A stretch of 45,566 nucleotides of DNA from Escherichia phage vB_EcoS_XY1. A program made the translations under genes and the position numbers. The stretch lies in sequence record NC_073325.1; one strand, 5' to 3'. This document shows positions 1-45,566 of this stretch, one piece after another (the first letter of the stretch is position 1; every line of letters starts with the position of its first letter). The notes under the pieces were generated by a model. That model was not told the DNA's origin. It worked only from the letters and a program-made list of their open reading frames with translations, and made no database searches.

Positions 1-127
1 GGGTCAGTCTGCGGCTTCCAGTTAGCGTTACCAACCGGGTTAAACGATGCGGGGACAACAACCGGCAGAGTCCCGGTATACGAGTACCACGTCTTGCTTA
101 CAGGGTCATACACCACTTTGTCTCGGT
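1..127. repeat. Direct terminal repeat; identical copy at 45440-45566 (circular closure overlap or terminal redundancy)
   Basis: Bases 1-127 match 45440-45566 exactly when read from the sequence. Confidence 0.9.
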
Positions 128-2939: not shown

Positions 2940-3295
2940 AATTCAATCTCCGTGTACGTGTCTCTGAGGTCCGCCAGCCTGTCAAGCCGTACCTGGCGGG
3001 ATGCAAGCTCGCAATGACTCACCATCCCGTCGAAGTAAACTCCCGCATGCCACACGATACGACCCCCGCGGCGATAACCCATAAGCACCGCGCAGAAGTT
3101 TTCAGGCTTATCAATTTTTGTAAGCCCCTTCGTGTCACGGCGGCCTTCGTCAAACGCTTCGTTAATTGCCGTTGGGCTTGTAACGTCGAACGCAGGGGTT
3201 TCTAACCCGGCATCCGCGCGGACAATGCGCACGTGATGCCAGCAATTGCGTTTGCGAAAGTCGTAAGGTATGCCCGTGTAGTCGTTAATATTCAT
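2930..3295 (-). CDS. Tail assembly protein with NlpC/P60-like motifs (gpK-like)
   Basis: 121 aa; candidate catalytic Cys in NCWHH and His in VWHAGVY; sits in the distal tail gene block. Confidence 0.45.
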   Translation of the reverse strand: MNINDYTGIPYDFRKRNCWHHVRIVRADAGLETPAFDVTSPTAINEAFDEGRRDTKGLTKIDKPENFCAVLMGYRRGGRIVWHAGVYFDGMVSHCELASRQVRLDRLADLRDTYTEIEFWR

Positions 3296-9461: not shown

Positions 9462-10616
9462 ATGGCCCAGAAGAAAATAACCGACGAACAGTTACAGGAA
9501 GAATTGAACGCCGGGATGAAGATTATTGATATCGCCCGTAAATACGGCATCTCAGACCGCGTTATTCGTATCCGTAAAGCGAAGCTGGCTAAGAAAGGTG
9601 TAGGCCACGGGCGTGACGTTAGTCACCTTGTACCGGACGGCTACAAGATTAAAGGAACGTCGTCTCTGGTTGATGAGTTAGGCAACACTAAACTGCAATG
9701 GGTTAAGACCGACACCGATGCGGAACGTCAGGTCGAGTTAATGAAAGCCGTTGTGGACGAGATGAAAAAAGATTTACCCAAGTATAAGCCAGTCACTTTG
9801 GCCAAAAATGGGACAGATGACGACTTATTAAATCTTTACACAATAACAGACCATCACATAGGGATGTTGGCGTGTCAAGAAGAAGGCGGGGATGATTACG
9901 ACACCACAATCGCGGAATCTCTCGCGGTTGACTGGTTCAACAGTGCGGTTTGTATGAGTCCACAGAGTGGTGAATGTATCATTAACTTCTTAGGGGACCA
10001 AATGCACTACGACGGCATGAAGGCAATGACCCCTATGAGCGGTCATATTCTTTCAGCGGATAGTCGCCTGTTTAAAATGATACGCACGGCCATTAAGGTT
10101 ATCAAGCTGGCTGTCTCACTGTGCTTGCGAAAACACAAGAAGGTTAAACTTCTTATCTGTGAAGGTAACCACGACCTTAGTTCTTCTCTGTGGCTCCGGG
10201 AGATGTTCTACGAGGTATACACAAATGAGCCTCGCGTCGAGGTTAACCGGGAGGTGTCACCGTATTATGCGTACAAGTTCGGGGATTGTATGATTTCAGC
10301 ACATCACGGGCATTGTTCTAACTTTGCTAAGGTAGAGCAGGCTATAATCGGTAAGTACCGGGAGATGTACGGGCGGTGTAAGTTCACATATGTCCATACG
10401 GGGCACCTCCATCACAGGGCGGTTAAAGAGACTAATCTGCTAATTGTTGAGCAACACCAGACATTAGCGGCTAAAGATGAGTATTCTAGTAAGGGCGGCT
10501 ATTATTCAGGTAGAAGCGCAAATGTGATTACATACCACAAACGTTACGGGGAGGTGTCCCGCATAAGTATACCTGTCGAAATGCTGCGAGACATAAACCC
10601 AAAATCGACATACTAA
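9462..10616 (+). CDS. HTH domain fused to a calcineurin-like metallophosphoesterase
   Basis: N-terminal HTH (IIDIARKYGISDRVIR); metallophosphoesterase-like motifs TDHHIG, LGDQMHYDG, EGNHD, HHGH, TGHLHH. Confidence 0.45.
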   Translation: MAQKKITDEQLQEELNAGMKIIDIARKYGISDRVIRIRKAKLAKKGVGHGRDVSHLVPDGYKIKGTSSLVDELGNTKLQWVKTDTDAERQVELMKAVVDEMKKDLPKYKPVTLAKNGTDDDLLNLYTITDHHIGMLACQEEGGDDYDTTIAESLAVDWFNSAVCMSPQSGECIINFLGDQMHYDGMKAMTPMSGHILSADSRLFKMIRTAIKVIKLAVSLCLRKHKKVKLLICEGNHDLSSSLWLREMFYEVYTNEPRVEVNREVSPYYAYKFGDCMISAHHGHCSNFAKVEQAIIGKYREMYGRCKFTYVHTGHLHHRAVKETNLLIVEQHQTLAAKDEYSSKGGYYSGRSANVITYHKRYGEVSRISIPVEMLRDINPKSTY

Positions 10617-16530: not shown

Positions 16531-17580
16531 TTAAGCCCCGACACCAGTTACCAGGAAGGCAATCGGTACATGCTTACGGTCAACCACACGGTTCCAGTTG
16601 GAGGCGTTCGCCAGGTCCTGCCATGAAGCAGAGCGGGCGATAGTCTCGGTGCCGTTGCCAGTGATTACCGCGCTGGTGAAGCTGTAACCCAGCGGGTGCA
16701 TCAACCAGGTCTTACGGGTCCACAGGGTTTCTACGCCGCCGCCGTTACCACGAGACGCTTCATACTCGTAGTGCAGTGGTTTGACCGGATTGCCTTCACC
16801 GTAACCGATAGCGCCGTTGCCGAAGATGATGGAGATGAACTTACGGGTCGGGCCAGTACCAACTACAGTCATGCTGTCGTCAACAATCACGCGGTAGCCC
16901 TGGTAGGTGGCAAACATGGTGTCGTTGTCAGCGTCTTTGATGAAGTCAATAAGCTGCTGCTTACGGGCCTGCGCATATACGAAGCTGTGCATCGCGATAG
17001 CACCCAGCACGTCACCGCCGTTACCCATCAGCGCATCACCCATAGTCTGGGTAGCGTCGATGAACGCGCCCGCGTCGAAGCCCAGAGTAGAGGACACGTC
17101 GATTACCATGTCGTTCTGCTTGTGGTATGCGTCGGTAGCGGCTACGTTGTCATTGTACAGACCGAGCGCGGTAGCAATAAGACGGCGTTGTGCCTGGCGC
17201 TGCCAGAAGTTATCCAGGCGAGAAGCCACAGATTGCAGCGGGTTCTGGCTGGTCAGTTCGACAGTCAGGTCCGCCTGACCGAAACCTTCGTTCAGGTATG
17301 CAACGCGGGCCATCATCTCACCGGTCTGCACGTTACGCGGGGTGGCGATGTCCTGGTATACGTCGTTCGAGTAGTTAGGCTCGATAGAGGTATCAATCGC
17401 TTTCCAGAAAGGAATGTTAGCGACGTTGGACGGGCCGCGAGCAATCTCGGCAGCGTACGGAGTCGGGGTCAAAATACCTGACTGAAAGAACGCGGTTTTT
17501 TCTACCGGGTCCTCGGTCATATAAGACGCCAGGACCGGGATGTTGCCAGTTACGATATCGCCGATAGTGGTAATTGCCAT
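16531..17580 (-). CDS. Major capsid protein (HK97 type)
   Basis: 349 aa downstream of the scaffold gene, followed by a terminator; composition and length typical of HK97-type capsid proteins. Confidence 0.8.
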   Translation of the reverse strand: MAITTIGDIVTGNIPVLASYMTEDPVEKTAFFQSGILTPTPYAAEIARGPSNVANIPFWKAIDTSIEPNYSNDVYQDIATPRNVQTGEMMARVAYLNEGFGQADLTVELTSQNPLQSVASRLDNFWQRQAQRRLIATALGLYNDNVAATDAYHKQNDMVIDVSSTLGFDAGAFIDATQTMGDALMGNGGDVLGAIAMHSFVYAQARKQQLIDFIKDADNDTMFATYQGYRVIVDDSMTVVGTGPTRKFISIIFGNGAIGYGEGNPVKPLHYEYEASRGNGGGVETLWTRKTWLMHPLGYSFTSAVITGNGTETIARSASWQDLANASNWNRVVDRKHVPIAFLVTGVGA

Positions 17581-17582
17581 TA

Positions 17583-18338
17583 TTATTTCCTCAGGGCTTT
17601 AAGTTGCCGTTCAAATTCGGCAGGGTTCGATTTATACAGAGCTAAACGCTCCGCTTCACTCATGTCTTTAAACGCTGGTGCGGCCCCGCCGCCTTTGCTA
17701 CCGGAAGCCCCGCCGCCGGAAGCTGCATTTGCTTTAATCAAATGCGAAAATGCTTTGTGTTCACGCAGGTATTTGCGGAACTGTTCCGGGTCAGTCGTGA
17801 TTACGTTGCCATCCGCACCAACAAACTTAGTAACCACGTCATCGCCTTCGAACTCAGTCTTAACGAACGGAGCAAGAATGTCTACTGCTTCCGGGGTAAT
17901 AAAGTCGCCCGCGAAAGAGCCTAACACCGCTTTACGTTCACTGCCGAGGATACGCTCTGCCATTTTGGAGATGCGACCATCTTTCTCGGCTAACACCGGG
18001 TCATACTGGCTACGAATCGTCTTTTCGAACTCGTCCATCTTACCAGCGGCTTTTAACGCCTCCTGGTGCGCGCGCTGCCGTTCTTCTTCGGCCTCTTTTG
18101 CTTTACGAGCGGCTTCTTTCTTCTCCGCCAGCAATGCTTCCTGATTGGCCTTAAGCCCGGCAACTTCTTTCTCAATCAGCGCCTGAACTTCTTCAGCGGT
18201 GAACATTTTCGGCGCGTCACCGCCACCAGCTTTATCTTCTGCCCCAGCTTCTTCCTGGAACGGATAACGTAAAAAACGATTCATAGTCAGTATGTCCCCT
18301 GGACGTTGGAACCCGGGCCACCCGGATTTACATGTCAA
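17583..18338 (-). CDS. Scaffolding protein
   Basis: Ala/Glu/Lys-rich coiled-coil protein immediately upstream of the capsid gene; true start may be the internal Met near 18284. Confidence 0.6.
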   Translation of the reverse strand: MTCKSGWPGFQRPGDILTMNRFLRYPFQEEAGAEDKAGGGDAPKMFTAEEVQALIEKEVAGLKANQEALLAEKKEAARKAKEAEEERQRAHQEALKAAGKMDEFEKTIRSQYDPVLAEKDGRISKMAERILGSERKAVLGSFAGDFITPEAVDILAPFVKTEFEGDDVVTKFVGADGNVITTDPEQFRKYLREHKAFSHLIKANAASGGGASGSKGGGAAPAFKDMSEAERLALYKSNPAEFERQLKALRK

Positions 18339-18366
18339 GAATAAATTATTCCAACATGCAAGGCAA

Positions 18367-18630
18367 CTATTCCAGAATATTCCTCACGTAATCCTGCAAC
18401 ATGAACACTTTCATACGCAGTTGCCGTACACATTCTGTGTTCTGAACGTCAATGGCTAAATCCTCATCGGCATCGCTACTTGGCGCGGCCAGTTTGCATG
18501 GCGGCTGCATCATCGTCGTATCCGGGGATGGAATTGGCGTTTGCGACGGCGCGGGACTTGAGCAGGACGCGAGCATCGTCGAAAGTGCACACGCTGCGGC
18601 CAGGCGTTTTAATGTACTTAACGACTTCAC
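18367..18630 (-). CDS. o-spanin (Rz1-like outer-membrane lipoprotein)
   Basis: Signal peptide with lipobox LASC, Pro-rich mature region; ORF overlaps the i-spanin gene in another frame. Confidence 0.5.
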   Translation of the reverse strand: MKSLSTLKRLAAACALSTMLASCSSPAPSQTPIPSPDTTMMQPPCKLAAPSSDADEDLAIDVQNTECVRQLRMKVFMLQDYVRNILE

Positions 18631-18862
18631 GGGTAATCACCTCTGATTTCGTCTTGCCTTCGTTGTCAGCGGCGGCGGCCTTTGATTCGTCCTGCTGCTG
18701 CCGTTGTGTTTTCTTCGCTAACTCAGCCTGTGCTTTCTGCTGTTGCTGCGAAACTAGATTAGCCCTGCCTCCGTTCCAGCCGCTGCGGTATTGAAAGTAG
18801 CCGTGGGCATATAACAGGACGATGAAACACGCTCCCGCCACGACAGTTGCTTTAAGATTCAT
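18476..18862 (-). CDS. i-spanin (Rz-like)
   Basis: N-terminal transmembrane helix followed by a Gln/Ala/Lys-rich coiled-coil periplasmic region; contains the overlapping lipoprotein ORF. Confidence 0.55.
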   Translation of the reverse strand: MNLKATVVAGACFIVLLYAHGYFQYRSGWNGGRANLVSQQQQKAQAELAKKTQRQQQDESKAAAADNEGKTKSEVITREVVKYIKTPGRSVCTFDDARVLLKSRAVANANSIPGYDDDAAAMQTGRAK

Positions 18863-18886
18863 GTTTCTCCTTTCTCGATAAGTAAA

Positions 18887-18906
18887 GCCCCGCCTTAAAG
18901 CGGGGC
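18887..18906 (-). terminator. Stem-loop in the leader upstream of the spanin genes
   Basis: GCCCCGC-CTTAAA-GCGGGGC hairpin followed by TTTACTT on the minus strand. Confidence 0.4.
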
Positions 18907-19086
18907 GCTAGTCCTTATCATTTAAACATAGAAACGGCGTAATCTCAGTAAACCCGTTACTTTTTACACGAGCAATAGAGTATGGCCCTTCCGAACGCGT
19001 CAGCGTAACTACACTCATGACTTACGTCCCGCTCCGTTACCTGCCCGCGCCGCGGTCGCTTGTTCATACTTCACAAGCTCAGGTGG

Positions 19087-19129
19087 AGCTTAGCACATTT
19101 TTAGTGAAAAGTCAACTATTCGAATAGTT
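19087..19129 (-). promoter_or_regulatory. Promoter-like site with adjacent 16-bp perfect palindrome
   Basis: Minus orientation TTGACT-N17-TAAGCT; palindrome AACTATTCGAATAGTT at 19114-19129 abuts the -35. Confidence 0.35.
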
Positions 19130-19176
19130 TATTCCTACATTTACAATTTGGTGGAATAACTGGAATAATCACAGGC

Positions 19177-19200
19177 ATTAAAAAGCCCCTTTCGGGGCCT
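19177..19200 (-). terminator. Rho-independent terminator after gene 19205-19666
   Basis: GGCCCCGAAAGGGGC hairpin followed by TTTTT on the minus strand. Confidence 0.6.
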
Positions 19201-19204
19201 AAGT

Positions 19205-19666
19205 TTATTCGGGCTTAGTGACCTTCGCCGCTTTGCTGACAGCCTCTACACCATCGGCATCAGTAACTTTAACGAAGTATTCCCCAACAGAATTAACCGT
19301 CAGAGACAAAGCCTCTTCCGGGGCGTTAACCACTTCCTTCCCGTCTTTGTACCAGGTCAGCGCATATGGTGCTTTGCCCGCCTTAACTTCGACAGCGATA
19401 TTTGCGCTGCCGTCTGCCAGTTCAGCGTCCTGCGGTTGTACGGAGAAATACACATCACCAGCATCCGCCAGGTACTGAATCTCATAAAGCATGCCCGCCG
19501 CCGGTAGCGCAATACCGGTTTTATCTGCAAACGGCATATCGTCTACGGGCGCACCCAGTACACTTTCATCTTCAATAAATACCACGTTCTCGCCGGAGCC
19601 AGGCACACGGGCGTACTGGACTACGCGACGCGACGGTACATCAGTTACTTTGAAAAATCCCATCAT
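19205..19666 (-). CDS. Hypothetical protein with Ig-like C-terminal region
   Basis: 153 aa; C-terminal YALTWYKDGKEV...EYFVKVTDADG resembles Ig-like folds. Confidence 0.35.
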   Translation of the reverse strand: MMGFFKVTDVPSRRVVQYARVPGSGENVVFIEDESVLGAPVDDMPFADKTGIALPAAGMLYEIQYLADAGDVYFSVQPQDAELADGSANIAVEVKAGKAPYALTWYKDGKEVVNAPEEALSLTVNSVGEYFVKVTDADGVEAVSKAAKVTKPE

Positions 19667-20742
19667 TAATCCCCTTTCAGATAATCAGCAACACGTTTAT
19701 CGAGTTCCGCCATCTGCTTAAGCGTGAGCGGATTCCCGAAACCATCTACAGATATTACGCGAAACTCTTCCGGCGATATACCGCTGTTGCGGAAAATCTT
19801 ACCGCGAACCGGGCCGAGTGCTTCATCCTGAAACCATGCCGGTTGCTGTTCCAGGAACTCGTAATAGGTGGTGTCCGTGCTTACCTGAGTACCGCCGTCC
19901 GCTCCTTTAGCCGCTCGTTTTGCGCCCTTATCCAGGAAGTCGAACTCGGAACTGATTACCGGAGCCGTGCACGACCGGCAGTTCGGATGGGCTGGGGGCA
20001 TCGGCCCTTTACCAATTTCCCACGTCATCCCGTCTCTGGCTCTGCAAATCGTACTGGTACGGCTGTCCAGCGTTGACACCCACTCGTACTTCTCGATGAT
20101 GTCGTCGTTCTGACGGTACGTCTCGTTACGTGCTTCGTTGGACACGTGCGACAGCGCGGTGCGGATTACCGTAGCTGCGTTACGCTCGGAGATGTCCGCC
20201 AGCCCACCAGCGCCAACAACATTCTTAACAATCTGCCGTGTTGTCTGGCCTTGTACAAAGCCCATCTTAACGCCCGTTACCAGGCGCGCAACCTCCGTTT
20301 CACCCCAGCCAGACATCAGCTTAGTGAAATCAACAGGCTTGTCGCTCAATGATAGTGGCTGAAACTCAGCAGCGGTCCACACCTGTTCGGCGGTAGGTGT
20401 GACAAATTCCGCGTTAACGTTAGCTGTCAGTGTCTTTACGTTCCACTCAGCTTCATACGCCGCCAGCTCCTTAAGGTCTTCTGTCAGCTTTGTCTGCCAG
20501 TCACCCGTAAGCCCAGTCAATGCTTCTTCGAGGTCGCGTAACAGTTTATTCAGTCGCGCAGTGCTACGCCCGTCGTCACCGAATAACAGCACCTGTCGTT
20601 TTATTTCGTCCCGCATCTCCCGGACGAACGGCGCGAGGTCTTTCACTTCACCGGATGCGGTGCGTTGCAGCCATATCTGGTGGCTAATTAGGGATGTAAG
20701 TAAGCTCATAGATAAACCCTGTGGCGCTAAAGTTAATAGCAT
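19666..20742 (-). CDS. Head morphogenesis protein (minor capsid, SPP1 gp7 / Mu F-like), putative
   Basis: 358 aa immediately after the portal gene; call rests on size and position. Confidence 0.55.
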   Translation of the reverse strand: MLLTLAPQGLSMSLLTSLISHQIWLQRTASGEVKDLAPFVREMRDEIKRQVLLFGDDGRSTARLNKLLRDLEEALTGLTGDWQTKLTEDLKELAAYEAEWNVKTLTANVNAEFVTPTAEQVWTAAEFQPLSLSDKPVDFTKLMSGWGETEVARLVTGVKMGFVQGQTTRQIVKNVVGAGGLADISERNAATVIRTALSHVSNEARNETYRQNDDIIEKYEWVSTLDSRTSTICRARDGMTWEIGKGPMPPAHPNCRSCTAPVISSEFDFLDKGAKRAAKGADGGTQVSTDTTYYEFLEQQPAWFQDEALGPVRGKIFRNSGISPEEFRVISVDGFGNPLTLKQMAELDKRVADYLKGD

Positions 20743-20778: not shown

Positions 20779-22260
20779 TTACTGCTGAGCGGTGTCTTGT
20801 TGCTGAGCCGACTGCGGAATCTCCCCCGTCACCTGAGTAACGGCCCCCAACGGCAATGGTGCATCCTCGATAGCGTTCTGAATGTCTTCATCCTTCCAGT
20901 CAGTTACACCCGCCTTGCGCAACGCAGCATAGTAAGCGGTGGCGGGCAGCAAGCCAGCGTTAATGTCTGCCATCCACTGGGCGCGGTCCTGAGCTGTCAT
21001 CGGTTGTAGGAAGAACTCCATGTTCAGCTTGAATTCAATCTCTGTGTCTTCGCGCAACCCTAGCATCGCCGCTACCCAGCGCAATGCATCGGTATACGCC
21101 ATGCTTACGTTACGCGCGATTGTTGCCATGACTGACGTATCGGCGCCGCGTTGCAGGCGGGCGGATTCGGCGGTGATTTGCTGCGTCGGGGTGATAAGCT
21201 GCGCGCCAATCTGAATGGCCTGATTCTCTTTATCCAGCATATTCTGTTTGGCGAGGTTGTTCTCTCCTGCCTGAACCAGAAACGCATTGCCGCCGTACCC
21301 GATGTTATGGCCCGAACGCGACCCCATACGCACGCCGTGGGGGTTGGCTTCTTTCCACTGTTCCATGCTCATGTTCTCACCGGGGGCAATAAACAGCGTT
21401 GGCTGGCCTACAACGAAGCTGGATTCCTCATTGTCCGCGCTGTTACGGAAATGCCCGATATTAAGTTCAGCCAACGGCAGCAAAGGGGCATCGTCGATGG
21501 TTGCGTCGTTGTTGCTTGCGCCAATAAACGTGAATGGGATTTTGCCGCGTAACTGTTCGCCGAGTTCCGGGAATATTTCGATTACTTCACCCTGAGCGCC
21601 ACCTTCTGCATCGAAGCGGTAAATGCGCTGGCGGTAGCGACCATCAATCAGGTCAAGAACACGATACTGCTCACCGAACTTGGTTTCGAACTCTGCGCCC
21701 TGTTCCGAGTATTCCCACACCTCTCGCAACACGACCATCGTCACTCGGTTAACTGAACCGATGCGGGTAAGTCGCCAGTTGATGATGTTCTCTGCGGTGT
21801 AAAATGCGATGACCGGGTTTAATAACCCCGCGTTCTGTTCTGCTGCCGTTGCCGCAGCTGTCTCAGGGGCATCCACCAGCAACCCACCACGGCCCACCGA
21901 GTCAATCTCCATCAGCGTGTCCTGTGCGTGCTGCCACAGCCCGACACCGGAACCGTCGGCATTACGTAACAGGTACTCAAGTTCCGGCGGGATAATCTGT
22001 TCAGGGTCTTTGCGCATGACACTGCCGACCATCCCCGCCAGGGTGCGTTTAGTGAAGTTGTAACAGATAGCGCCGTTCTCGTATTCTTCCTGGCGCTGTG
22101 CTGCGTAGGTCGGTTCAGGCTCGTTCTTCCCGACGTTGCGCAGGTAACGGATAAGGCCGCCTTCCAGCGCGTGGCGTACCTTCTGCCATTTATTGAAGTG
22201 ATGCAGCCATTCCCGGTGTTTAGTCTTAACACCCTGATTCTGACCGTTCATAGTTAACAT
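20779..22260 (-). CDS. Portal protein
   Basis: 493 aa directly downstream of the large terminase gene. Confidence 0.8.
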   Translation of the reverse strand: MLTMNGQNQGVKTKHREWLHHFNKWQKVRHALEGGLIRYLRNVGKNEPEPTYAAQRQEEYENGAICYNFTKRTLAGMVGSVMRKDPEQIIPPELEYLLRNADGSGVGLWQHAQDTLMEIDSVGRGGLLVDAPETAAATAAEQNAGLLNPVIAFYTAENIINWRLTRIGSVNRVTMVVLREVWEYSEQGAEFETKFGEQYRVLDLIDGRYRQRIYRFDAEGGAQGEVIEIFPELGEQLRGKIPFTFIGASNNDATIDDAPLLPLAELNIGHFRNSADNEESSFVVGQPTLFIAPGENMSMEQWKEANPHGVRMGSRSGHNIGYGGNAFLVQAGENNLAKQNMLDKENQAIQIGAQLITPTQQITAESARLQRGADTSVMATIARNVSMAYTDALRWVAAMLGLREDTEIEFKLNMEFFLQPMTAQDRAQWMADINAGLLPATAYYAALRKAGVTDWKDEDIQNAIEDAPLPLGAVTQVTGEIPQSAQQQDTAQQ

Positions 22261-25936: not shown

Positions 25937-26021
25937 TTCTCTCTACTCCGTTCTCGTTGTCGATGAAGTAAATATAATAGGGTCTACGGTAATAGTCAAC
26001 TAGTCATTACAGAAAATAGAT

Positions 26022-26052
26022 AAAAAAAATCCCGGCTGGGTCAGGGCCGGGA
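26022..26052 (-). terminator. Rho-independent terminator (3' end of a candidate small RNA)
   Basis: TCCCGGC-loop-GCCGGGA hairpin followed by T8 on the minus strand. Confidence 0.7.
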
Positions 26053-26092
26053 TAAAACTGGAGAGCAGAGGGATGGAACAGGAGGTGATTTA

Positions 26093-26121
26093 AGTATCGT
26101 CGGATTAGTCTCAGGTGTCAA
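26093..26121 (-). promoter_or_regulatory. Sigma70-like promoter between two terminators
   Basis: Minus orientation TTGACA-N17-GATACT, about 60 nt upstream of the 26022-26052 terminator. Confidence 0.4.
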
Positions 26122-26124
26122 TTG

Positions 26125-26156
26125 GTAAAATAAAACCCGGATTAGCGGTCCGGGTT
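26125..26156 (-). terminator. Rho-independent terminator after the lysis cassette
   Basis: AACCCGGA-loop-TCCGGGTT hairpin followed by TTTTATTTT on the minus strand. Confidence 0.65.
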
Positions 26157-26284
26157 TCGGTCATAAGCCCCTGAACCCTACGCAGTCTCCACCGCTTGGG
26201 CTGCTGCTTCGGGTTTACCAGGGCTTAGTATGCAAGCACAAGCAGCGTGGAAGTAATTTTACTAAATGCCTTCGTATTCGTCCA

Positions 26285-26770
26285 TCATTTAACAGCCCTC
26301 CCGATAGCCTCAGCCTCTTGCCACGGTTTACCGTCGAACAGCGCCAGACGTCCGGCTGTACGGCGACGCAGGCCGAGTAACGGTTTGCCGTTCTGGTTGA
26401 TGAACAGCGCCAGCTTAGCCCGCAGCGTCGGAATATCACCGTAACGCAGAGCCTTACCCGTGCCCGTAGTAGACGCAATCACGCCAGCGCCCGCGTTATA
26501 GACCAGGTCGCAAACAGCATCAAACTGCGCCTGCGTCAGTGAATGGTGTGCCGCTGCATCAACCGCAGCTACAGCCTTAGCCATATCGCGATTCAGTAAC
26601 AGCAAGCCCTGTCCTGGTGTGATGGTCTTACCTGGTGTTACGTCCGGCCCGTAGTGGCCGTAGCCTATGGTAAGGTACTTCTCATTCGGCGTAGCGCGAT
26701 ACGCAGTTCCACGGAACCCCTCGAATGCGGCGGTAAAATGCAATCCATTATCTGAAATATTTCGAGACAC
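26285..26770 (-). CDS. Endolysin, phage lysozyme-like (GH24-type)
   Basis: N-terminal FEGFRGTAYR...YLTIGYGH lysozyme motif; directly downstream of two holin-like genes. Confidence 0.75.
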   Translation of the reverse strand: MSRNISDNGLHFTAAFEGFRGTAYRATPNEKYLTIGYGHYGPDVTPGKTITPGQGLLLLNRDMAKAVAAVDAAAHHSLTQAQFDAVCDLVYNAGAGVIASTTGTGKALRYGDIPTLRAKLALFINQNGKPLLGLRRRTAGRLALFDGKPWQEAEAIGRAVK

Positions 26771-27020
26771 GCTTATGCCCTCCGTATGACAGCCACGCCT
26801 GACGAATCTGGCGCAGCGCGACTAATGTGATTAATGTCTCAGGCAGCGTTGGCGACATGCTGCCATGTAACAGGTGGATGCATCCGGCAGCGCAGACGAT
26901 AGCAGTCAGGATATAGAGCACCCGACCAAATAATCCGTCGTCCACGCAGGGGTGATACACATTAAACAGCGATGCGCCCCCGATTGCCAGCATACCGCCG
27001 AACCAGAATAGCTCATTCAT
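26748..27020 (-). CDS. Holin or antiholin (second small membrane protein of the lysis cassette)
   Basis: 90 aa with two hydrophobic helices; overlaps both neighbours. Confidence 0.45.
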   Translation of the reverse strand: MNELFWFGGMLAIGGASLFNVYHPCVDDGLFGRVLYILTAIVCAAGCIHLLHGSMSPTLPETLITLVALRQIRQAWLSYGGHKRVSKYFR

Positions 27021-27321
27021 CCGGGCCTCCTCGACGTGAGATGTATTCCCCGGCGACGATACCGGATAGACGGGAATAAATAGGCATCCAGAGAATTGCG
27101 ATGATGAATCCCAGGCCAGCTATCTCTCGCTCGCCGGTGATACCGAACCATTGCGCTGCAAGAGGCGCACCGAATACGGCGCAGGTGAAGCCGGTAGCGA
27201 TAAAGCAGAAGCCATCAATAGGGCCAGAAATAACGGACTTATGTTGCCGTAGGCCGATTACCCCTCCGGCTAGTGCGGCAGCGAGAAGCCACCCCGTCAC
27301 TGTTTCAGTAAATTTATCCAA
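27013..27321 (-). CDS. Holin
   Basis: 102 aa with multiple hydrophobic helices and a charged C-terminus; first gene of the lysis cassette. Confidence 0.55.
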   Translation of the reverse strand: MDKFTETVTGWLLAAALAGGVIGLRQHKSVISGPIDGFCFIATGFTCAVFGAPLAAQWFGITGEREIAGLGFIIAILWMPIYSRLSGIVAGEYISRRGGPDE

Positions 27322-37551: not shown

Positions 37552-39723
37552 ATGAGTTACCTGTTCTTAGACTTTGAAACATTCTCCGAAGCCGATTTGA
37601 AGAAAGTCGGTTCCTACGCTTACGCCGAACATCCAACTACCGAAGTGCTAATCTGTACATATGCTTTTAACGACCAGCCTGTACAGGTATGGGATTGCAC
37701 CGACGGCAGCGATATGCCGGGCGATTTGTATCGCGCGTTACGCCGCCTGGTTAAGCCGAACAGCCGCGTTAAGATGGTGTGGCACAACGGCTCAATGTTC
37801 GATAGGCTCGTCATGAAACACTGCTGGGGTTTTGACATTCCGGTAAGCAACACCATTGATACGATGATTTGGGCGTTTCGTCACGCGCTGCCGGGTTCGC
37901 TCGATGCGCTGTGCGAAGTGCTGGGCGTGTCCGCCGACAACGCGAAAGACAAACGCGGCAAGGCGCTGATTCAGCGTTTCTCTAAACCGACGCCGAAGAA
38001 CTACAAAATCCGCCGCTACACCGCTGAAACACATCCCGATGAGTGGGCGCTGTTCATCAAGTATGCCGTTAGCGACATTACTGCGATGCGTGAAGTCTTC
38101 CATAAGCTGCCGCGATGGGGTAACTCGGAGTTCGAAGACCGTGTACTGGAACTTGACCAGTTAATCAACGACCGCGGATTTAAGGTTGACGTCGCACTGG
38201 CGGAAGCCGCGATTGAAGCCGTAGAGAAGCACAAGGCACAGTTACAGGAAGAAGCTCAACGTAAATACGGCGGCTCGCTTACCGGTAAAGACTTCCTTCC
38301 GATTCTGCGTGAACTTGCGCCCGCGCACCACATACACAATGCACAGAAGTCGACGCTTAACGACCTGTTGGCAGATGATGATTTACCGGACGACGCCCGG
38401 ATGATTATCGAAATGCGCCTCGGGGCCGCGTCAACAGCGTCCACGAAATATAACCCGCTGCTGTTAGGCCGCTCGTCGGACGACCGACGCCGCGGTTGTA
38501 TCCAGTACGGTGGGGCAAAGCGTACTCTGCGATGGGCCGGTAAAGGCTTCCAGCCGCAGAACCTGGCACGCGGTTACTATCACGATGATGAGCTGGATAA
38601 AGGCATTTCGGCGTTACTTAAGGGTCGCGCCCATCGCCGTTTCGATGTGGCCAAGCTAACGGCATCGACCGTTCGTAGCTGCATCATACCGGAAGCAGGG
38701 CATAAGTTTGTCGTTGCCGATTACTCTAACGTCGAAGGCCGCGGTCTTGCGTGGCTGGCGGGTGAAGACGATTTAATCGAAGTATTTGTAAACGGGGTTG
38801 ATGTGTATAAGAAACTCGCATCAACGGTGTTCAATGTTGCATATGAAGCCGTAACAAAGGACCAAAGACAAATAGCCAAAGCAATGGTTCTGGGACTCGG
38901 CTACGCGGGGGGCGTCGGTGCTTTCGTCACGTTTGCTAAAAACTTAGGTCTTGATTTGAATGACATGACTAACACTTTAGACGGTACATTCCCGGACCAT
39001 ATTTGGGCCGCTACCGCACGCGGATACGAATGGGCGCGTATTCAGGAAGCCAAGCGACCACCACGTCCTGGTGAAAAAGATGACCGACCCTCATATATCC
39101 TTGATAAGAAAGTTTGGCGCACCTGTGACGCTTTAAAGCGCATGTACCGGGAAGCTAATCCTGCAATAGTCCAATTCTGGCGCGATATTGAAGACGCAGC
39201 TATGGCAGCAATCCGTAATCCGGGGAAAGAGTTCACCGCTGGCCCTCGCGGGGTTAAGTTTTCTCGCAACGTAGAAACAGACAACAACGGCAACAAAGTC
39301 GCCGGTTGGTGGTTGTGCATGACGTTGCCGTCGGGTCGCGTTATGTCATACCCTGGCGTCGGGTTAAGTGTATCGAAAGAGACAGATGAAGACGGAAAGG
39401 TGTCTACTAACGTGCGCATCAAGTACCAGGGGGAGAACCAGTTAACCAGGCAGTGGGGATTCCAGTACACATATTCCGGTAAACTCGTGGAAAACTGCAC
39501 TCAGGCGCTGTGCCGTGATTTGCTGGCTAATGCACTGCTGAACGTAGAGGCAAACGGCTACCCAATTGTACTTCATGTTCACGATGAGATTATCTGCGAA
39601 ACTCCAGATTTACCGGAATACAATGTCGCAGAGCTTGAGCGATTGATGTGCGAATTACCAGAATGGGCAGAGGGGTTCCCTCTTGTAGCAGAAGGTCAGG
39701 AGTTAAAACGTTATGCTAAGTAA
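37552..39723 (+). CDS. DNA polymerase, family A, with 3'-5' exonuclease domain
   Basis: Exo I LFLDFETFS near the N-terminus; polymerase motif C VLHVHDEIICE near the C-terminus; 723 aa. Confidence 0.8.
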   Translation: MSYLFLDFETFSEADLKKVGSYAYAEHPTTEVLICTYAFNDQPVQVWDCTDGSDMPGDLYRALRRLVKPNSRVKMVWHNGSMFDRLVMKHCWGFDIPVSNTIDTMIWAFRHALPGSLDALCEVLGVSADNAKDKRGKALIQRFSKPTPKNYKIRRYTAETHPDEWALFIKYAVSDITAMREVFHKLPRWGNSEFEDRVLELDQLINDRGFKVDVALAEAAIEAVEKHKAQLQEEAQRKYGGSLTGKDFLPILRELAPAHHIHNAQKSTLNDLLADDDLPDDARMIIEMRLGAASTASTKYNPLLLGRSSDDRRRGCIQYGGAKRTLRWAGKGFQPQNLARGYYHDDELDKGISALLKGRAHRRFDVAKLTASTVRSCIIPEAGHKFVVADYSNVEGRGLAWLAGEDDLIEVFVNGVDVYKKLASTVFNVAYEAVTKDQRQIAKAMVLGLGYAGGVGAFVTFAKNLGLDLNDMTNTLDGTFPDHIWAATARGYEWARIQEAKRPPRPGEKDDRPSYILDKKVWRTCDALKRMYREANPAIVQFWRDIEDAAMAAIRNPGKEFTAGPRGVKFSRNVETDNNGNKVAGWWLCMTLPSGRVMSYPGVGLSVSKETDEDGKVSTNVRIKYQGENQLTRQWGFQYTYSGKLVENCTQALCRDLLANALLNVEANGYPIVLHVHDEIICETPDLPEYNVAELERLMCELPEWAEGFPLVAEGQELKRYAK

Positions 39724-42885: not shown

Positions 42886-45566
42886 TTTATCTTCTAGTGC
42901 TGCCAGCCTCTTCTCGAACTCGCGCATCTTCTTACGCTGATACGCAATCTCTATGAAGAACATCTGGTCCGCCCTAACCCCCCATCTGCCGCCGGGAGGG
43001 GATACTTGTACAGTCCGTCCATCTTCATCAATATCATACGCAGCTTCAATTGAGTCGTAGCACAAGAAAGCATATTTACAATCGGTAGAATCTTTCTCCA
43101 TAAGCCCATGTTTGACCAAGATGTCTCGCACATCTTGAGCTATCACGCCGAAGTGTATCCTTGCAGTGTCACCCTTGATTGCTAGGCTTTCAAGCCACTT
43201 AAAAGATATTACATGTATATCTTCCCATGCGGTAAGGAGTTGTTCCTCAATTTCCTCTTTGTTCGTCTTAAGTGTACCGTCAGACGTGTTTATCGTACCG
43301 GTGGTCGCGTACACCGTAGTCCACCTATTACCTGCCGAACCTAAAGACACTTGCGAGTCTAAGTAAGGAAGGAAATTGTTGTATGAGTAGAAGCCTCCTG
43401 ACGCATACATAATAGCCCTGTTAGGCGTTGCATGGTTCGACCCGTACAGTTGCAGCAATGCACCGTCGGAACTGGATGCGCCATCACCGCCACTAACAAT
43501 CAGTCGTTGACCCGATGGAGTTTTAGTCGGGACTGTTTTTGAAATCAGCCCGTAATCACCATCAAACCGTGCACGCACGGCAGACTGTTGTGTGCCATCG
43601 TATTCCAACCCCGTTACACGCAGGGAGTACACGCTTATATCATTGTCAAACGTCAAAGGTGCTTCTACATGACGGACACCATCTACACCCATTGCGACAG
43701 GTAGTGTACGGTTAGGAGTTGCTCCGTATTTGAAATCACGTGACACATACGGGTGGCCTTCAATCTTTATCCGGTAGCTATATAAGTCAGCCGGATGCCC
43801 ATCATGCTTGTACCATAACTTCGCACTGTTATCCCCGATGCTCCAGGGAGAGAAGAAGTCTTCCCCACCAAAGATATAGTACAACCAGCCATCTTTAACA
43901 CAGACAGAGCCGACGCCGACAGCAGAGTTAACAATATGGCCCTGGTATATTTGGTCGGTAATATTAAACCACTGAACATCATCTAAAGATGAAGGCCATG
44001 ACGACACATTAACTTTGCACATAAAGGTCCGTGGATACGAACCTTCATAGCGGCTGTCCGGCTCGCCTCCTTCCCACTCGCCAAAGGCACGTTCTGTACC
44101 AAAGATGTAGAGATAGTCACCTACTTTAGCGAACGGAAGATTGGAGTGATGTACATTGTTCGGAAATCGCAAGTAGCTCCAGTTTTGCCCAGAATCGGTG
44201 CTCATCGCCAGTGTAGAGCCAGGGGAAGTAGGTAATGTGCCGCGTGTGGTAAGGTAGAGCACACCCCCATAACTTTTCACGCACGGTTCAGAAGCGTTAT
44301 CAGCGTATGCCTGAGCGACAGTGCGACGAACGAATACGCCTGGGTTGTCATAAACGTTACTAAAATACAAGACGCCAAGACGACGAGGGGACACATCGCC
44401 GTTGTGGTAGCCGACAGCGATAGTGTAGTTAGTATCATCTATAACCGCAAAACTATGTGTCTCCGTGACACACAAATCAGCGTTAGTGGAGTATGCTACC
44501 CCCGGCAATTCGGTAATTTCCCACGGGCTGTCCCAGAATCGCGTTGCGAAGTTCCAGGTAACACCCGCATTGTTTATGGTGGAACTCGCAGGGCTTGAGA
44601 GCGTAACAGTGAACGTATTTCGGTTAATTATAGACGCAACCGTCATATTACCCGATACGCCAGTTGCCGATGTATTAGAGAAGTTAACCGCATCTCCTGC
44701 TTTTAGGCCATGATTTTCTATAACAATGGTAGCAGTAGTGGAGCCAGAACTAATAGTTATTCCGCCGGTTGGGTGTCTAAAATACGGCATTGGGCGTGAC
44801 CAAAGTTCTGCCTTCTTCATCCGCATATTAGATAAGTAGCGGGTTTCTATAACTGCATATAATCGGTTGCCGCACGTACCCATGCTCATGCAGTGGTAGT
44901 TAACTCTGTCCGCAGAAACACTGGCATTATAGTCAGCATGGATTGGAGTCAACCACTCAGGCATTGACCAAGTCTGCCCGTCGTCACCAGAGCGAACCCA
45001 AGCTACATGTAAGTTTTGAACGCCATGTCGTTCGCCCGCCATAAACGGGGCGTAAATAACATGGTCGTAGACGAAAGTTTTATCCTGCGTCCATGCGTTG
45101 TAGAACGGGGTATCCGTCACCTTAGTTAGTGAGCTGTTAAAGAAGCCATCAGCTACATAAGTAAGCGGTTGCCCGGCTACACGCTCGTAAACGAATGCAG
45201 CATTCTTAAATTTACTAATGTCAGGTAATTGGGAAACTTTATAAGTCAAACCCCTGCCGTCTATAATCCAATTGTTGGGAGAAGCTGCTAATACATTAAA
45301 AATAGATTGAGTATCATCAGTTACACCGTCGCCCACGGCGCCCCATGCGCGTGGGTCGTATTCGTCCTTCCATCGCGCCATATGTAAATCTGGGTACAGA
45401 ATTGCACCGTTTACATCAGATATTTGCTGCCTGAGATTTGGGTCAGTCTGCGGCTTCCAGTTAGCGTTACCAACCGGGTTAAACGATGCGGGGACAACAA
45501 CCGGCAGAGTCCCGGTATACGAGTACCACGTCTTGCTTACAGGGTCATACACCACTTTGTCTCGGT
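42883..45566 (-). CDS. Tailspike: sialidase-like beta-propeller with C-terminal intramolecular chaperone domain (endosialidase-type); main body of the gene that starts at 371
   Basis: Asp-box motifs SGDDGQTW and STDSGQNW; C-terminal ...DIHVISFKWLESLAIKGDTARIHFGVIAQDV... chaperone-like region; ORF stays open to the window end and continues in frame from 1-371. Confidence 0.75.
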   Translation of the reverse strand, partial: RDKVVYDPVSKTWYSYTGTLPVVVPASFNPVGNANWKPQTDPNLRQQISDVNGAILYPDLHMARWKDEYDPRAWGAVGDGVTDDTQSIFNVLAASPNNWIIDGRGLTYKVSQLPDISKFKNAAFVYERVAGQPLTYVADGFFNSSLTKVTDTPFYNAWTQDKTFVYDHVIYAPFMAGERHGVQNLHVAWVRSGDDGQTWSMPEWLTPIHADYNASVSADRVNYHCMSMGTCGNRLYAVIETRYLSNMRMKKAELWSRPMPYFRHPTGGITISSGSTTATIVIENHGLKAGDAVNFSNTSATGVSGNMTVASIINRNTFTVTLSSPASSTINNAGVTWNFATRFWDSPWEITELPGVAYSTNADLCVTETHSFAVIDDTNYTIAVGYHNGDVSPRRLGVLYFSNVYDNPGVFVRRTVAQAYADNASEPCVKSYGGVLYLTTRGTLPTSPGSTLAMSTDSGQNWSYLRFPNNVHHSNLPFAKVGDYLYIFGTERAFGEWEGGEPDSRYEGSYPRTFMCKVNVSSWPSSLDDVQWFNITDQIYQGHIVNSAVGVGSVCVKDGWLYYIFGGEDFFSPWSIGDNSAKLWYKHDGHPADLYSYRIKIEGHPYVSRDFKYGATPNRTLPVAMGVDGVRHVEAPLTFDNDISVYSLRVTGLEYDGTQQSAVRARFDGDYGLISKTVPTKTPSGQRLIVSGGDGASSSDGALLQLYGSNHATPNRAIMYASGGFYSYNNFLPYLDSQVSLGSAGNRWTTVYATTGTINTSDGTLKTNKEEIEEQLLTAWEDIHVISFKWLESLAIKGDTARIHFGVIAQDVRDILVKHGLMEKDSTDCKYAFLCYDSIEAAYDIDEDGRTVQVSPPGGRWGVRADQMFFIEIAYQRKKMREFEKRLAALEDK
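45440..45566. repeat. Second copy of the 127-bp terminal repeat
   Basis: Identical to bases 1-127. Confidence 0.9.

What the first reader, a model, noticed from the sequence alone, without database searches (positions are those of the whole stretch)
18367..18862. Overlapping Rz/Rz1-type spanin pair sits in the head module, about 7.4 kb from the holin-endolysin cassette
Seen: 18476-18862 encodes a protein with an N-terminal transmembrane helix and a Gln/Lys/Ala-rich coiled coil. The overlapping ORF in another frame (18367-18630) encodes a signal peptide with lipobox LASC followed by a Pro-rich region. Established knowledge: this overlapped architecture is the hallmark of i-spanin/o-spanin pairs. 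It is unusual that the pair lies between the head morphogenesis and scaffold genes while the holins and endolysin are at 26285-27321 behind separate terminators. The spanins would then be expressed with capsid genes rather than with the rest of the lysis cassette.
Basis: partly seen in the sequence, partly recalled or inferred. Interest (0 to 1): 0.45.

Follow-up and report, generated by a model that had tools for sequence, protein, structure and literature searches.

The report
Known spanin pair in head module
This is a real pair of overlapping outer-membrane-lysis (spanin) genes lying among the capsid genes of a Kagunavirus-type coliphage, but the pair and its odd location are already catalogued and are the rule for this whole phage group, so the finding is ordinary.

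Summary
On the minus strand, 18476-18862 encodes a 128-aa protein with an N-terminal membrane helix. 18367-18630 encodes, in the +1 frame, an 87-aa lipoprotein with lipobox LASC (Cys23). The two genes overlap by 155 nt.

Both match "Rz-like spanin" PHROGs. Both frames are intact in about 50 relatives, and codon-position diversity switches frame exactly where the i-spanin ends. No other lipoprotein-signal ORF exists in this circular 45.4-kb genome.

The window is a Kagunavirus (Guernseyvirinae). The pair belongs to the "Jersey" overlapped spanin family of Kongari et al. 2018, with the same 155-nt overlap and the same Cys45/Cys67.

Every relative examined has the order portal, head morphogenesis, Hoc-like, spanins, scaffold, major capsid, with holin-holin-endolysin several kb upstream. 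Dhillonvirus shares the plan. Published genome notes already state that the spanins are separate from the holin/endolysin genes. The finding is therefore already known.

Co-expression with capsid genes is plausible but unproven.

The more interesting by-product is an unannotated feature directly upstream of the spanins. It is a highly conserved promoter-like site followed by a roughly 190-nt structured leader that ends in a hairpin.

The parts
18476..18862 (-). i-spanin gene (128 aa): N-terminal transmembrane helix at about residues 5-23, Gln/Ala/Lys-rich helical periplasmic domain, invariant periplasmic Cys92
   Evidence: phrog_2536, E 6.8e-55; hydropathy 1.74; AF2 helices 3-64, 69-84, 94-107; low confidence; Cys92 in 46/46 unique homologues
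18367..18630 (-). o-spanin gene (87 aa, GTG start, +1 frame): lipoprotein signal with lipobox LASC (Cys23), Ser at +2, Pro-rich linker, conserved Cys45 and Cys67, conserved C-terminal helix region
   Evidence: phrog_5672 E 1.2e-29; phrog_1267 E 7.3e-18; the only credible lipobox ORF in the genome
18476..18630 (-). 155-nt dual-coding overlap of the two spanin genes
   Evidence: Same overlap length in 44 colinear relatives and in the Jersey family description (PMC6139136). Codon-position diversity is flattened in the part encoding mature o-spanin.
18887..18906 (-). GC-rich hairpin (GCCCCGC-TTTAAG-GCGGGGC, then TTTACTTATC) ending 24 nt before the i-spanin ATG. It is terminator-like, but the U-tract is weak.
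   Evidence: Conserved with compensatory changes in relatives.
18968..19087 (-). Core of a conserved structured leader RNA between the predicted promoter and the spanin genes. No Rfam family matches it.
19087..19115 (-). Conserved sigma-70-like promoter candidate TTGACT-17 nt-TGcTAAGCT pointing towards the spanins
   Evidence: Conserved in Kagunavirus and, as T(T/A)GACT-17-TGtTACGCT, in Jerseyvirus. Predicted only.
19180..19199 (-). Intrinsic terminator (GCCCC-GAAA-GGGGC + TTTTT) directly after the Hoc-like gene. In many relatives an opposite-strand accessory gene occupies this spot.
   Evidence: read from sequence
18285..18366 (-). Conserved 82-nt spacer between the o-spanin stop and the scaffold ATG: GGAATAATTTATTC, TTGACA, and hairpin CCGGGTGGCCCGG (18325-18313). 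No T-rich terminator.
17583..18284 (-). Head scaffolding protein gene (downstream neighbour)
   Evidence: phrog_206, E 1.8e-55; start fixed
19205..19666 (-). Hoc-like head decoration gene (upstream neighbour)
   Evidence: phrog_3945, E 5.4e-84
19666..20742 (-). Head morphogenesis (Mu F-like / SPP1 gp7-like) gene
   Evidence: (PF04233, E 3.9e-13)
26285..27321 (-). Rest of the lysis system: holin 27013-27321, holin 26748-27020, endolysin 26285-26770
   Evidence: phrog_2359, phrog_2508, phrog_7 / phrog_33703
26022..26157 (-). Two strong intrinsic terminators downstream of the endolysin (26157-26127 and 26052-26022), with sigma-70-like promoters at 26121-26093 and 25999-25971
   Evidence: read from sequence; 9-nt loops, so the scan missed them; promoter-like sites

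Best explanation
The two ORFs are the two-component spanin of a Kagunavirus (Guernseyvirinae) coliphage and belong to the already described 'Jersey' overlapped spanin family.

Mechanism, taken from established spanin biology and not shown here:
- The i-spanin is anchored in the inner membrane by its N-terminal helix and extends a helical domain into the periplasm.
- The o-spanin is exported, lipidated on Cys23 by the Lgt/LspA/Lnt pathway and sorted to the outer membrane. Ser at +2 means there is no Lol-avoidance signal.
- The C-terminal parts bind each other, and disulfide-linked complexes (i-spanin Cys92; o-spanin Cys45 and Cys67) span the periplasm.
- These complexes accumulate harmlessly, held apart by the peptidoglycan mesh.
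- The holins (27013-27321, 26748-27020) trigger and the endolysin (26285-26770) removes the wall. The spanins then fuse or disrupt the outer membrane as the last step of lysis.
- Holin triggering sets the timing. The spanins therefore only need to be made some time before lysis, and a position in the late structural region is functionally neutral.

Expression (inferred): the pair is the first coding unit downstream of a conserved promoter-like site, a structured leader and a hairpin. No strong terminator lies before the scaffold and capsid genes, so it is probably transcribed with them.
For: Anatomy:
- Transmembrane helix, lipobox, +2 Ser, Pro-rich linker and a 155-nt +1 overlap.

Family:
- PHROG Rz-like spanin hits.
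- 62-65% amino-acid identity to the phage Jersey pair.
- Same overlap length and the same conserved Cys45/Cys67 as described for the Jersey family, which lists K1G, K1H and K1ind1-3 (PMC6139136).

Both frames are coding:
- The o-spanin frame and a lipobox are intact in all relatives.
- Per-site diversity by codon position is 0.109/0.085/0.236 in the i-spanin-only part and 0.088/0.033/0.250 (o-spanin frame) in the o-spanin-only part. It is flattened to 0.115/0.077/0.138 where both mature proteins are encoded.
- i-spanin Cys92 is invariant in 46/46 unique sequences.

Only candidate:
- The window is a closed circular genome; bases 1-127 repeat at 45440-45566.
- A whole-genome scan finds no other credible lipoprotein signal. 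Nothing spanin-like lies next to the endolysin.

Conserved placement:
-.

Literature:
- PMC6763661, PMC7203180, PMC9825357, PMC9409062.
Against: - No member of this family has, to my knowledge, been tested experimentally. Function rests on anatomy and family assignment.
- There is no sequence match to the lambda Rz (PF03245) or Rz1 (PF06085) Pfam families. The best hit is a sub-threshold match to DUF2514 (E 0.0086). NCBIfam gives nothing meaningful.
- SignalP, LipoP and TMHMM were not available. Signal and helix calls rest on hydropathy, motif and conservation.
- The AF2 single-sequence model is low confidence (mean pLDDT 61).
- Co-transcription with capsid genes is not shown. The hairpin 24 nt upstream of the ATG could terminate part of the transcripts.
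Confidence: 0.93

Rival explanations
1. The 87-aa +1-frame ORF is a chance open frame inside and after a single real gene. Only the 128-aa membrane protein is made.
For: Overlapping ORFs of this size occur by chance. Many gene callers omit or truncate it; VIPECOTH07 and Golestan annotate only a 47-48-aa C-terminal piece.
Against: The full frame with a lipobox at the same position is kept in every relative, although the signal-peptide sequence diverges (LASC, LSAC, LNGC, ITGC). Third-position diversity switches to this frame after the i-spanin stop. A strong GAGGTG ribosome-binding site precedes the GTG. PHROG hits reach E 1e-29.
Confidence: 0.01
2. The pair is not a lysis function. It is a membrane protein plus lipoprotein accessory cassette, for example superinfection exclusion or receptor masking like T5 Llp or the Cor lipoproteins (the comparison is from my own knowledge). 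It would be carried as a moron in the head region.
For: It lies at a spot that is a hot-spot for accessory genes in relatives. It is flanked by conserved non-coding segments. It is physically separate from holin and endolysin.
Against: It is a core feature, present at the same place in all Guernseyvirinae loci examined and in Dhillonvirus, unlike the variable morons next to it. It has the full spanin signature: type II membrane partner, overlapped +1 lipoprotein and conserved periplasmic cysteines on both partners. The genome has no other outer-membrane-disruption candidate. A separate Imm-like superinfection immunity gene is annotated in close relatives.
Confidence: 0.04
3. The spanins are not co-expressed with the capsid genes. 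The promoter, leader and hairpin upstream would make a short terminated RNA. The spanins would then be transcribed at a low level only by read-through, while scaffold and capsid use a separate promoter in the 82-nt spacer (TTGACA at 18338-18333).
For: A hairpin lies 24 nt before the ATG. TTGACA and a shared GGAATAANNTATTC motif occur in the spacer before the scaffold gene. Spanins are needed in far smaller amounts than scaffold or capsid protein (established knowledge).
Against: The U-tract after the hairpin is weak (UUUACUUAUC; CUUAGCGUAU in Jerseyvirus). No acceptable -10 element follows the spacer TTGACA, and that hexamer is TTGTTA in Jerseyvirus. All of this is sequence-based prediction only.
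Confidence: 0.25

Closest known systems
'Jersey' overlapped two-component spanin family (Kongari et al. 2018, PMC6139136). Members include Jersey, SETP3, SE2, K1G, K1H, K1ind1-3, HK578, JL1 and SO-1. Corresponds to PHROGs 2536 and 5672/1267.
   Same: Same proteins. Identity is 88-98% to Kagunavirus i-spanins and 62-65% to phage Jersey. The 155-nt overlap, the conserved Cys45/Cys67 in the o-spanin and the genomic position between the head-morphogenesis/Hoc-like genes and the scaffold gene are all the same.
   Different: Nothing of substance. This is one more allele; its lipobox is LASC, where others have LSAC, LNGC or LSGC.
Phage lambda Rz/Rz1 (embedded two-component spanin)
   Same: Same functional class and topology: a type II inner-membrane subunit plus an outer-membrane lipoprotein encoded in the +1 frame, with periplasmic cysteines.
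   Different: No detectable sequence homology; there is no Pfam PF03245 or PF06085 hit. The architecture is overlapped rather than fully embedded. The genes are not adjacent to holin and endolysin.
T4 pseT.3/pseT.2 and T7 gp18.5/gp18.7 spanins
   Same: Precedents for spanin genes placed away from the other lysis genes. T4: PMC6139136 Fig. 8 legend. T7: the pair lies between the terminase genes, with the lysozyme gene 3.5 far away (my own knowledge).
   Different: Unrelated sequences. The T4 pair has the separated architecture and the T7 pair the embedded one. Neither lies between the head-morphogenesis and scaffold genes.
Dhillonvirus (HK578-like) spanins, e.g. JL1 gp58 and SO-1 gp05/gp06
   Same: Distant homologues (39-54% over the C-terminal part). 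The genome plan is the same: holin-holin-endolysin, then terminase, portal and head morphogenesis, then spanins, scaffold and capsid.
   Different: There the i-spanin start overlaps the stop of the head-morphogenesis gene, with no Hoc-like gene and no leader element. Accessory genes are inserted after the spanins, not before them.

Membership tests
Two-component spanin (i-spanin/o-spanin), overlapped architecture | The i-spanin is a small type II inner-membrane protein with a single N-terminal transmembrane domain. | tested here: met
   Residues ~5-23 (ATVVAGACFIVLLYAHGYF) give a Kyte-Doolittle 19-residue maximum of 1.74. The AF2 helix starts at residue 3 and has its highest pLDDT there. TMHMM was not available.
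Two-component spanin (i-spanin/o-spanin), overlapped architecture | The periplasmic domain of the i-spanin is largely alpha-helical or coiled-coil. | tested here: inconclusive
   The AF2 single-sequence model gives helices 3-64, 69-84 and 94-107, but mean pLDDT is 61 and the C-terminal half is below 50. The composition is Q/A/K/E-rich. No coiled-coil predictor was run.
Two-component spanin (i-spanin/o-spanin), overlapped architecture | The o-spanin has a signal peptidase II signal with a lipobox Cys and is sorted to the outer membrane (no Asp at +2). | tested here: met
   The n-region has K2, K8 and R9, the h-region is LAAACALSTML and the lipobox is LASC with Cys23. The +2 residue is Ser. The lipobox Cys aligns across all relatives. 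LipoP and SignalP were not available.
Two-component spanin (i-spanin/o-spanin), overlapped architecture | The o-spanin gene starts inside the i-spanin gene in another frame and ends beyond it. | tested here: met
   155-nt overlap in the +1 frame. The frame switch in codon-position diversity confirms that both frames are coding.
Two-component spanin (i-spanin/o-spanin), overlapped architecture | Periplasmic cysteines are available for intermolecular disulfides. | tested here: met
   i-spanin Cys92 is invariant in 46/46 unique sequences. o-spanin Cys45 and Cys67 are conserved, as PMC6139136 reports for the family.
Two-component spanin (i-spanin/o-spanin), overlapped architecture | The subunits form a periplasm-spanning complex that is required for outer-membrane disruption (lysis defect without it; complements lambda Rz/Rz1). 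| not testable with these tools
   Needs genetics and biochemistry. I found no experimental report for this family.
'Jersey' spanin family (Kongari 2018) / PHROG 2536 + 5672 | Significant sequence similarity of both subunits to family members. | tested here: met
   phrog_2536 E 6.8e-55; phrog_5672 E 1.2e-29; phrog_1267 E 7.3e-18. tblastn shows 64% identity to Jersey and 90.6% to K1ind2.
Lambda Rz (Pfam PF03245) / Rz1 (PF06085) sequence families | Match to the Pfam models above the gathering threshold. | tested here: not met
   No hit at E <= 0.1. 'Rz/Rz1-type' is valid only as a functional and architectural label.
Unimolecular spanin (T1 gp11 type) | [quoted passage not shown] | tested here: not met
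   The o-spanin has no C-terminal hydrophobic segment; windows with KD > 1.0 start only at residues 3-10. No other lipobox ORF exists in the genome.

The most novel reading that the evidence does not exclude
The spanin pair is not merely parked in the head module. It would be the promoter-proximal cistron of the scaffold/capsid late unit, and that unit would be governed by an undescribed cis-acting RNA.

The element consists of a conserved promoter, a roughly 120-nt structured core and then a hairpin 24 nt before the i-spanin ATG. The layout recalls lambda pR'-6S RNA-tR' followed by the lysis genes, or an HK022 put-like RNA that makes polymerase terminator-resistant. Both comparisons are from my own memory.

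In phage Golestan a diverged second copy of the promoter and core heads the unit that ends in holin-holin-endolysin. One RNA element could therefore coordinate the two halves of a split lysis system.
Probability: 0.15. Interest if true: 0.5.

Novelty: already known. Interest (0 to 1): 0.1.

Why it matters
For the spanin pair itself, very little. It confirms a correct annotation and shows that a 'lysis cassette' is not a reliable guide to where spanins lie in Guernseyvirinae and Dhillonvirus genomes. Many deposited records still omit or truncate the o-spanin (for example 47-48-aa calls in VIPECOTH07 and Golestan, and 'hypothetical protein' in many Salmonella phage records), so the full 87-aa GTG-start model is useful for re-annotating therapeutic phage genomes. 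The conserved leader element upstream may be worth a separate look as a candidate regulatory RNA of late gene expression in a phage group widely used for Salmonella and E. coli biocontrol.

Tried and rejected
- **Second spanin next to the endolysin.** ORFs of 35 aa or more between 24000 and 27700 were listed, and every start codon in the genome was scanned for lipoprotein signals. Apart from the o-spanin, the only hit was a 44-aa TTG ORF at 3019-3153 with Cys at position 34, which is not credible. The 87-aa ORF at 26215-26478 inside the endolysin gene has no signal peptide.
- **Cys14 as the lipidated residue.** AAAC or VAAC precedes Cys14 in Kagunavirus. This was rejected because the h-region would be only about 4 residues long and Jerseyvirus homologues lack this Cys, whereas Cys22/23 aligns in all.
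- **Pfam and NCBIfam.** No spanin family hit.
- **Small ORF 18908-19018 in the leader as a gene.** Its ATG is CTG in most relatives, so it was rejected.
- **Rfam on the intergenic region.** Only chance-level hits.
- **Leader in Dhillonvirus.** Neither nhmmer nor the covariance model found it in JL1 or SO-1, and neither found a second copy in the window.
- **Consensus promoter/terminator scan.** It missed the conserved promoter (its -10 element is TAAGCT) and the two terminators after the endolysin (9-nt loops). These were read by eye.
- **Literature.** Searches found no paper with transcript data or an experimental test for this spanin family.

Full report
**What the window is.**
A 3.3-kb stretch around the finding is 92-96% identical to many Escherichia phages of the genus Kagunavirus (Guernseyvirinae), such as hz69, BUCT825 and K1ind1. 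480 phage records match it. Bases 1-127 repeat at 45440-45566, so the window is one closed circular assembly of about 45,439 bp. Statements about 'the genome' therefore cover everything.

**The observation.**
Both ORFs are present at exactly the stated coordinates, on the minus strand.

- i-spanin, 18476-18862. It has an ATG start 5 nt after AAGGAG and encodes 128 aa. Residues ~5-23 form a hydrophobic stretch (Kyte-Doolittle 19-residue maximum 1.74), followed by a Q/A/K/E-rich region.
- o-spanin, 18367-18630. It starts at GTG, 7 nt after GAGGTG. An in-frame TGA lies three codons upstream, so this is the only start that includes the signal peptide. It encodes 87 aa with n-region MKSLSTLKR, h-region LAAACALSTML, lipobox LASC (Cys23), Ser at +2 and 8 prolines in residues 24-52.
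- The overlap is 155 nt and the o-spanin is in the +1 frame.
- A single-sequence AlphaFold model of the i-spanin gives helices 3-64, 69-84 and 94-107. Confidence is low (mean pLDDT 61), so it only weakly supports the 'coiled coil'.

**Is it more than chance?**
Yes.

- Family hits. The i-spanin matches phrog_2536 'Rz-like spanin' (E 6.8e-55). The o-spanin matches phrog_5672 (1.2e-29) and phrog_1267 (7.3e-18).
- Conserved frame. 47 related IMG/VR loci were fetched. In these and the reference phages the +1 frame is always open and always carries a lipobox at the aligned position, although the signal peptide diverges: LASC, LSAC, MSAC or LTSC in Kagunavirus, LNGC or LSGC in Jerseyvirus, and ITGC in one variant that overlaps by only 14 nt.
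- Codon-position diversity over 41 unique colinear sequences:

| Segment | Frame used | Position 1 | Position 2 | Position 3 |
|---|---|---|---|---|
| i-spanin only | i-spanin | 0.109 | 0.085 | 0.236 |
| o-spanin only | o-spanin | 0.088 | 0.033 | 0.250 |
| overlap encoding both mature proteins | i-spanin | 0.115 | 0.077 | 0.138 |

  The most variable codon position switches frame where the i-spanin ends, and diversity is nearly flat where both mature proteins are encoded. This is the expected signature of two real genes.
- Conserved cysteines. i-spanin Cys92 is invariant in 46/46 unique sequences. o-spanin Cys45 and Cys67 are conserved.

**Is there another spanin?**
No. The holin (27013-27321), second holin (26748-27020) and endolysin (26285-26770) are confirmed by PHROGs. 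Nothing downstream of the endolysin resembles a spanin. A scan of every start codon in the genome for a lipoprotein signal returns only the o-spanin, plus one non-credible 44-aa TTG ORF. This also excludes a unimolecular spanin.

**What it is.**
It is the two-component spanin of this phage and a member of the 'Jersey' family, the largest overlapped family in the spanin census of Kongari et al. 2018.

- That family lists Jersey, SETP3, SE2, K1G, K1H, K1ind1-3, HK578, JL1 and SO-1.
- The paper reports a 155-nt overlap in Jersey and constant cysteines at positions 45 and 67 of the o-spanin (PMC6139136). Both match here.
- It is not a sequence relative of lambda Rz or Rz1. There is no Pfam hit, only a sub-threshold DUF2514 match, and NCBIfam gives nothing. 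'Rz/Rz1-type' is therefore a functional and architectural label only.

**How it works.**
The mechanism below comes from established spanin biology and is inferred here.

- The i-spanin sits in the inner membrane and the lipidated o-spanin in the outer membrane.
- Their periplasmic parts bind and form disulfide-linked complexes that are held inactive by the murein mesh.
- After the holins trigger and the endolysin degrades the wall, the complexes disrupt or fuse the outer membrane.
- Because the holin sets the timing, spanins only have to be present beforehand. A position among late structural genes has no obvious functional cost.

**The location.**
The order is portal (20779-22260), head morphogenesis (19666-20742), Hoc-like decoration (19205-19666), a 342-nt gap, i-/o-spanin, an 82-nt spacer, scaffold (17583-18284) and major capsid (16531-17580). 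All are on the minus strand.

- The same order is found in all 47 IMG/VR loci and in Jersey, K1ind1, VIPECOTH07 and Golestan. Wherever the locus reaches far enough, holin-holin-endolysin lies about 7.5-9.5 kb upstream.
- Dhillonvirus JL1 and SO-1 share the plan. There the i-spanin start overlaps the stop of the head-morphogenesis gene, and holin and endolysin are again distant.
- 624 phage records encode an i-spanin homologue.
- The separation is in print. [quoted passage not shown] The gene numbering shows the same in Golestan (ORF7/8 versus ORF66-68; PMC7203180), fBC-Eco01 (gp11/12 versus gp68-70; PMC9825357) and SeF1 (PMC9409062).
- T4 is a published precedent for unlinked spanins. T7 gp18.5/18.7 between the terminase genes is another, from my own knowledge.

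**Expression.**
Everything here is read from sequence and inferred.

Two strong intrinsic terminators follow the endolysin, at 26157-26127 and 26052-26022. Each is followed by a sigma-70-like promoter.
- Another terminator follows the Hoc-like gene (19199-19180).
- Between it and the spanins lies a conserved promoter-like site: TTGACT at 19115-19110, a 17-nt spacer, then TGcTAAGCT ending at 19087.
- This is followed by a roughly 190-nt leader that ends in a GC-rich hairpin (18906-18887) with a weak U-tract, 24 nt before the ATG.
- No T-rich terminator separates the o-spanin from the scaffold gene. The 82-nt spacer is conserved and contains GGAATAATTTATTC, TTGACA and a small hairpin.
- The simplest reading is that spanins, scaffold and capsid genes share a transcript from this promoter. 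A rival reading is low-level spanin expression by read-through, with a second promoter for the scaffold gene. Only transcript mapping can decide.

**By-product: the leader.**

- The 258 nt from the promoter to the i-spanin ATG are 95-99% identical in 177 of 179 matching phage records.
- That is more conserved than the neighbouring genes. Phage dunkel has a 98.1% identical leader but a 74% identical i-spanin.
- No Rfam family matches, and most records annotate nothing there.
- An RNAalifold structure has 97.5% of cells paired, against 29-48% when partners are slid. Seven pairs show compensatory changes, against 0-3 when slid. The sequences fall into only two or three clades, so independent events are few.
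- A covariance model of the core finds one copy in the window (18968-19087, minus strand). It finds a diverged second copy in Golestan at 37630-37750, at the head of the unit that ends in holin-holin-endolysin. It finds none in Dhillonvirus.
- This could be a cis-regulatory leader or an antitermination element, but that is speculation.

**Verdict.**
The spanin interpretation is supported, and the 'unusual placement' is already documented and typical of the group. Novelty: already known. Interest: low.

Noticed in passing
window 18863-19120 (minus strand): An unannotated conserved promoter-like site (TTGACT-17-TGcTAAGCT) is followed by a roughly 190-nt leader with covariation-supported structure (core 18968-19087), ending in the hairpin at 18906-18887. 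It is 95-99% identical in 177 of 179 phage records, which is more conserved than the adjacent genes. No Rfam family matches. It may be a regulatory RNA or attenuator for the spanin-scaffold-capsid unit.
   Followed up: partly
L054 (phage Golestan, NC_042084.1) 37597-37760: A diverged second copy (78% identity, covariance model 87.6 bits) of the same promoter and leader core sits in the divergent early-promoter region. It points into the gene array that ends with holin-holin-endolysin. The window itself has only one copy.
   Followed up: partly
window 19176-19204, and the equivalent gap in L005-L051: The gap between the Hoc-like gene and the leader is an insertion hot-spot, ranging from 317 to 1117 nt in relatives. 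Many relatives carry an opposite-strand accessory gene there: a 242-246-aa DNA methyltransferase-like protein, a 173-aa protein, small proteins, and in L020 a small lipoprotein. The window has the short, empty version, but keeps a divergent promoter-like site (plus strand 19140-19169, TTTACA-18-AATAAT with an upstream TG).
   Followed up: partly
window 19122-19167 and 18339-18352 (minus strand): The motif GGAATAANNTATTC occurs only twice in the genome, on either side of the spanin genes. Further GGAATA/TATTCC half-sites cluster around it (TATTCCAGTTATTCC at 19153-19167). Both sites are conserved in Kagunavirus and Jerseyvirus. They may bind a phage regulator.
   Followed up: partly
window 25971-26157 (minus strand): Downstream of the endolysin the order is terminator, sigma-70-like promoter, about 40-70 nt, a second strong terminator and then another promoter. 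This may be a short transcript or an insulator between the lysis unit and the small genes that precede the terminase.
   Followed up: no
window 1-127 and 45440-45566: The ends of the window are identical over 127 nt. This is a circular-assembly overlap, so the true genome length is about 45,439 bp.
   Followed up: yes
L040 (IMGVR_UViG_3300045988_013393) 10001-10586: One Kagunavirus-like contig carries a variant spanin pair: a 118-aa i-spanin and an 81-aa o-spanin with lipobox ITGC, overlapping by only 14 nt. It lies at the same position and behind the same leader. This shows cassette exchange of spanin alleles between the conserved flanks.
   Followed up: partly
Public records PQ417132.1 and NC_042084.1: The o-spanin is annotated as a 47-48-aa fragment that lacks the signal peptide, and many Salmonella phage records call the pair 'hypothetical protein'. 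The full model is the 87-aa GTG-start ORF.
   Followed up: yes
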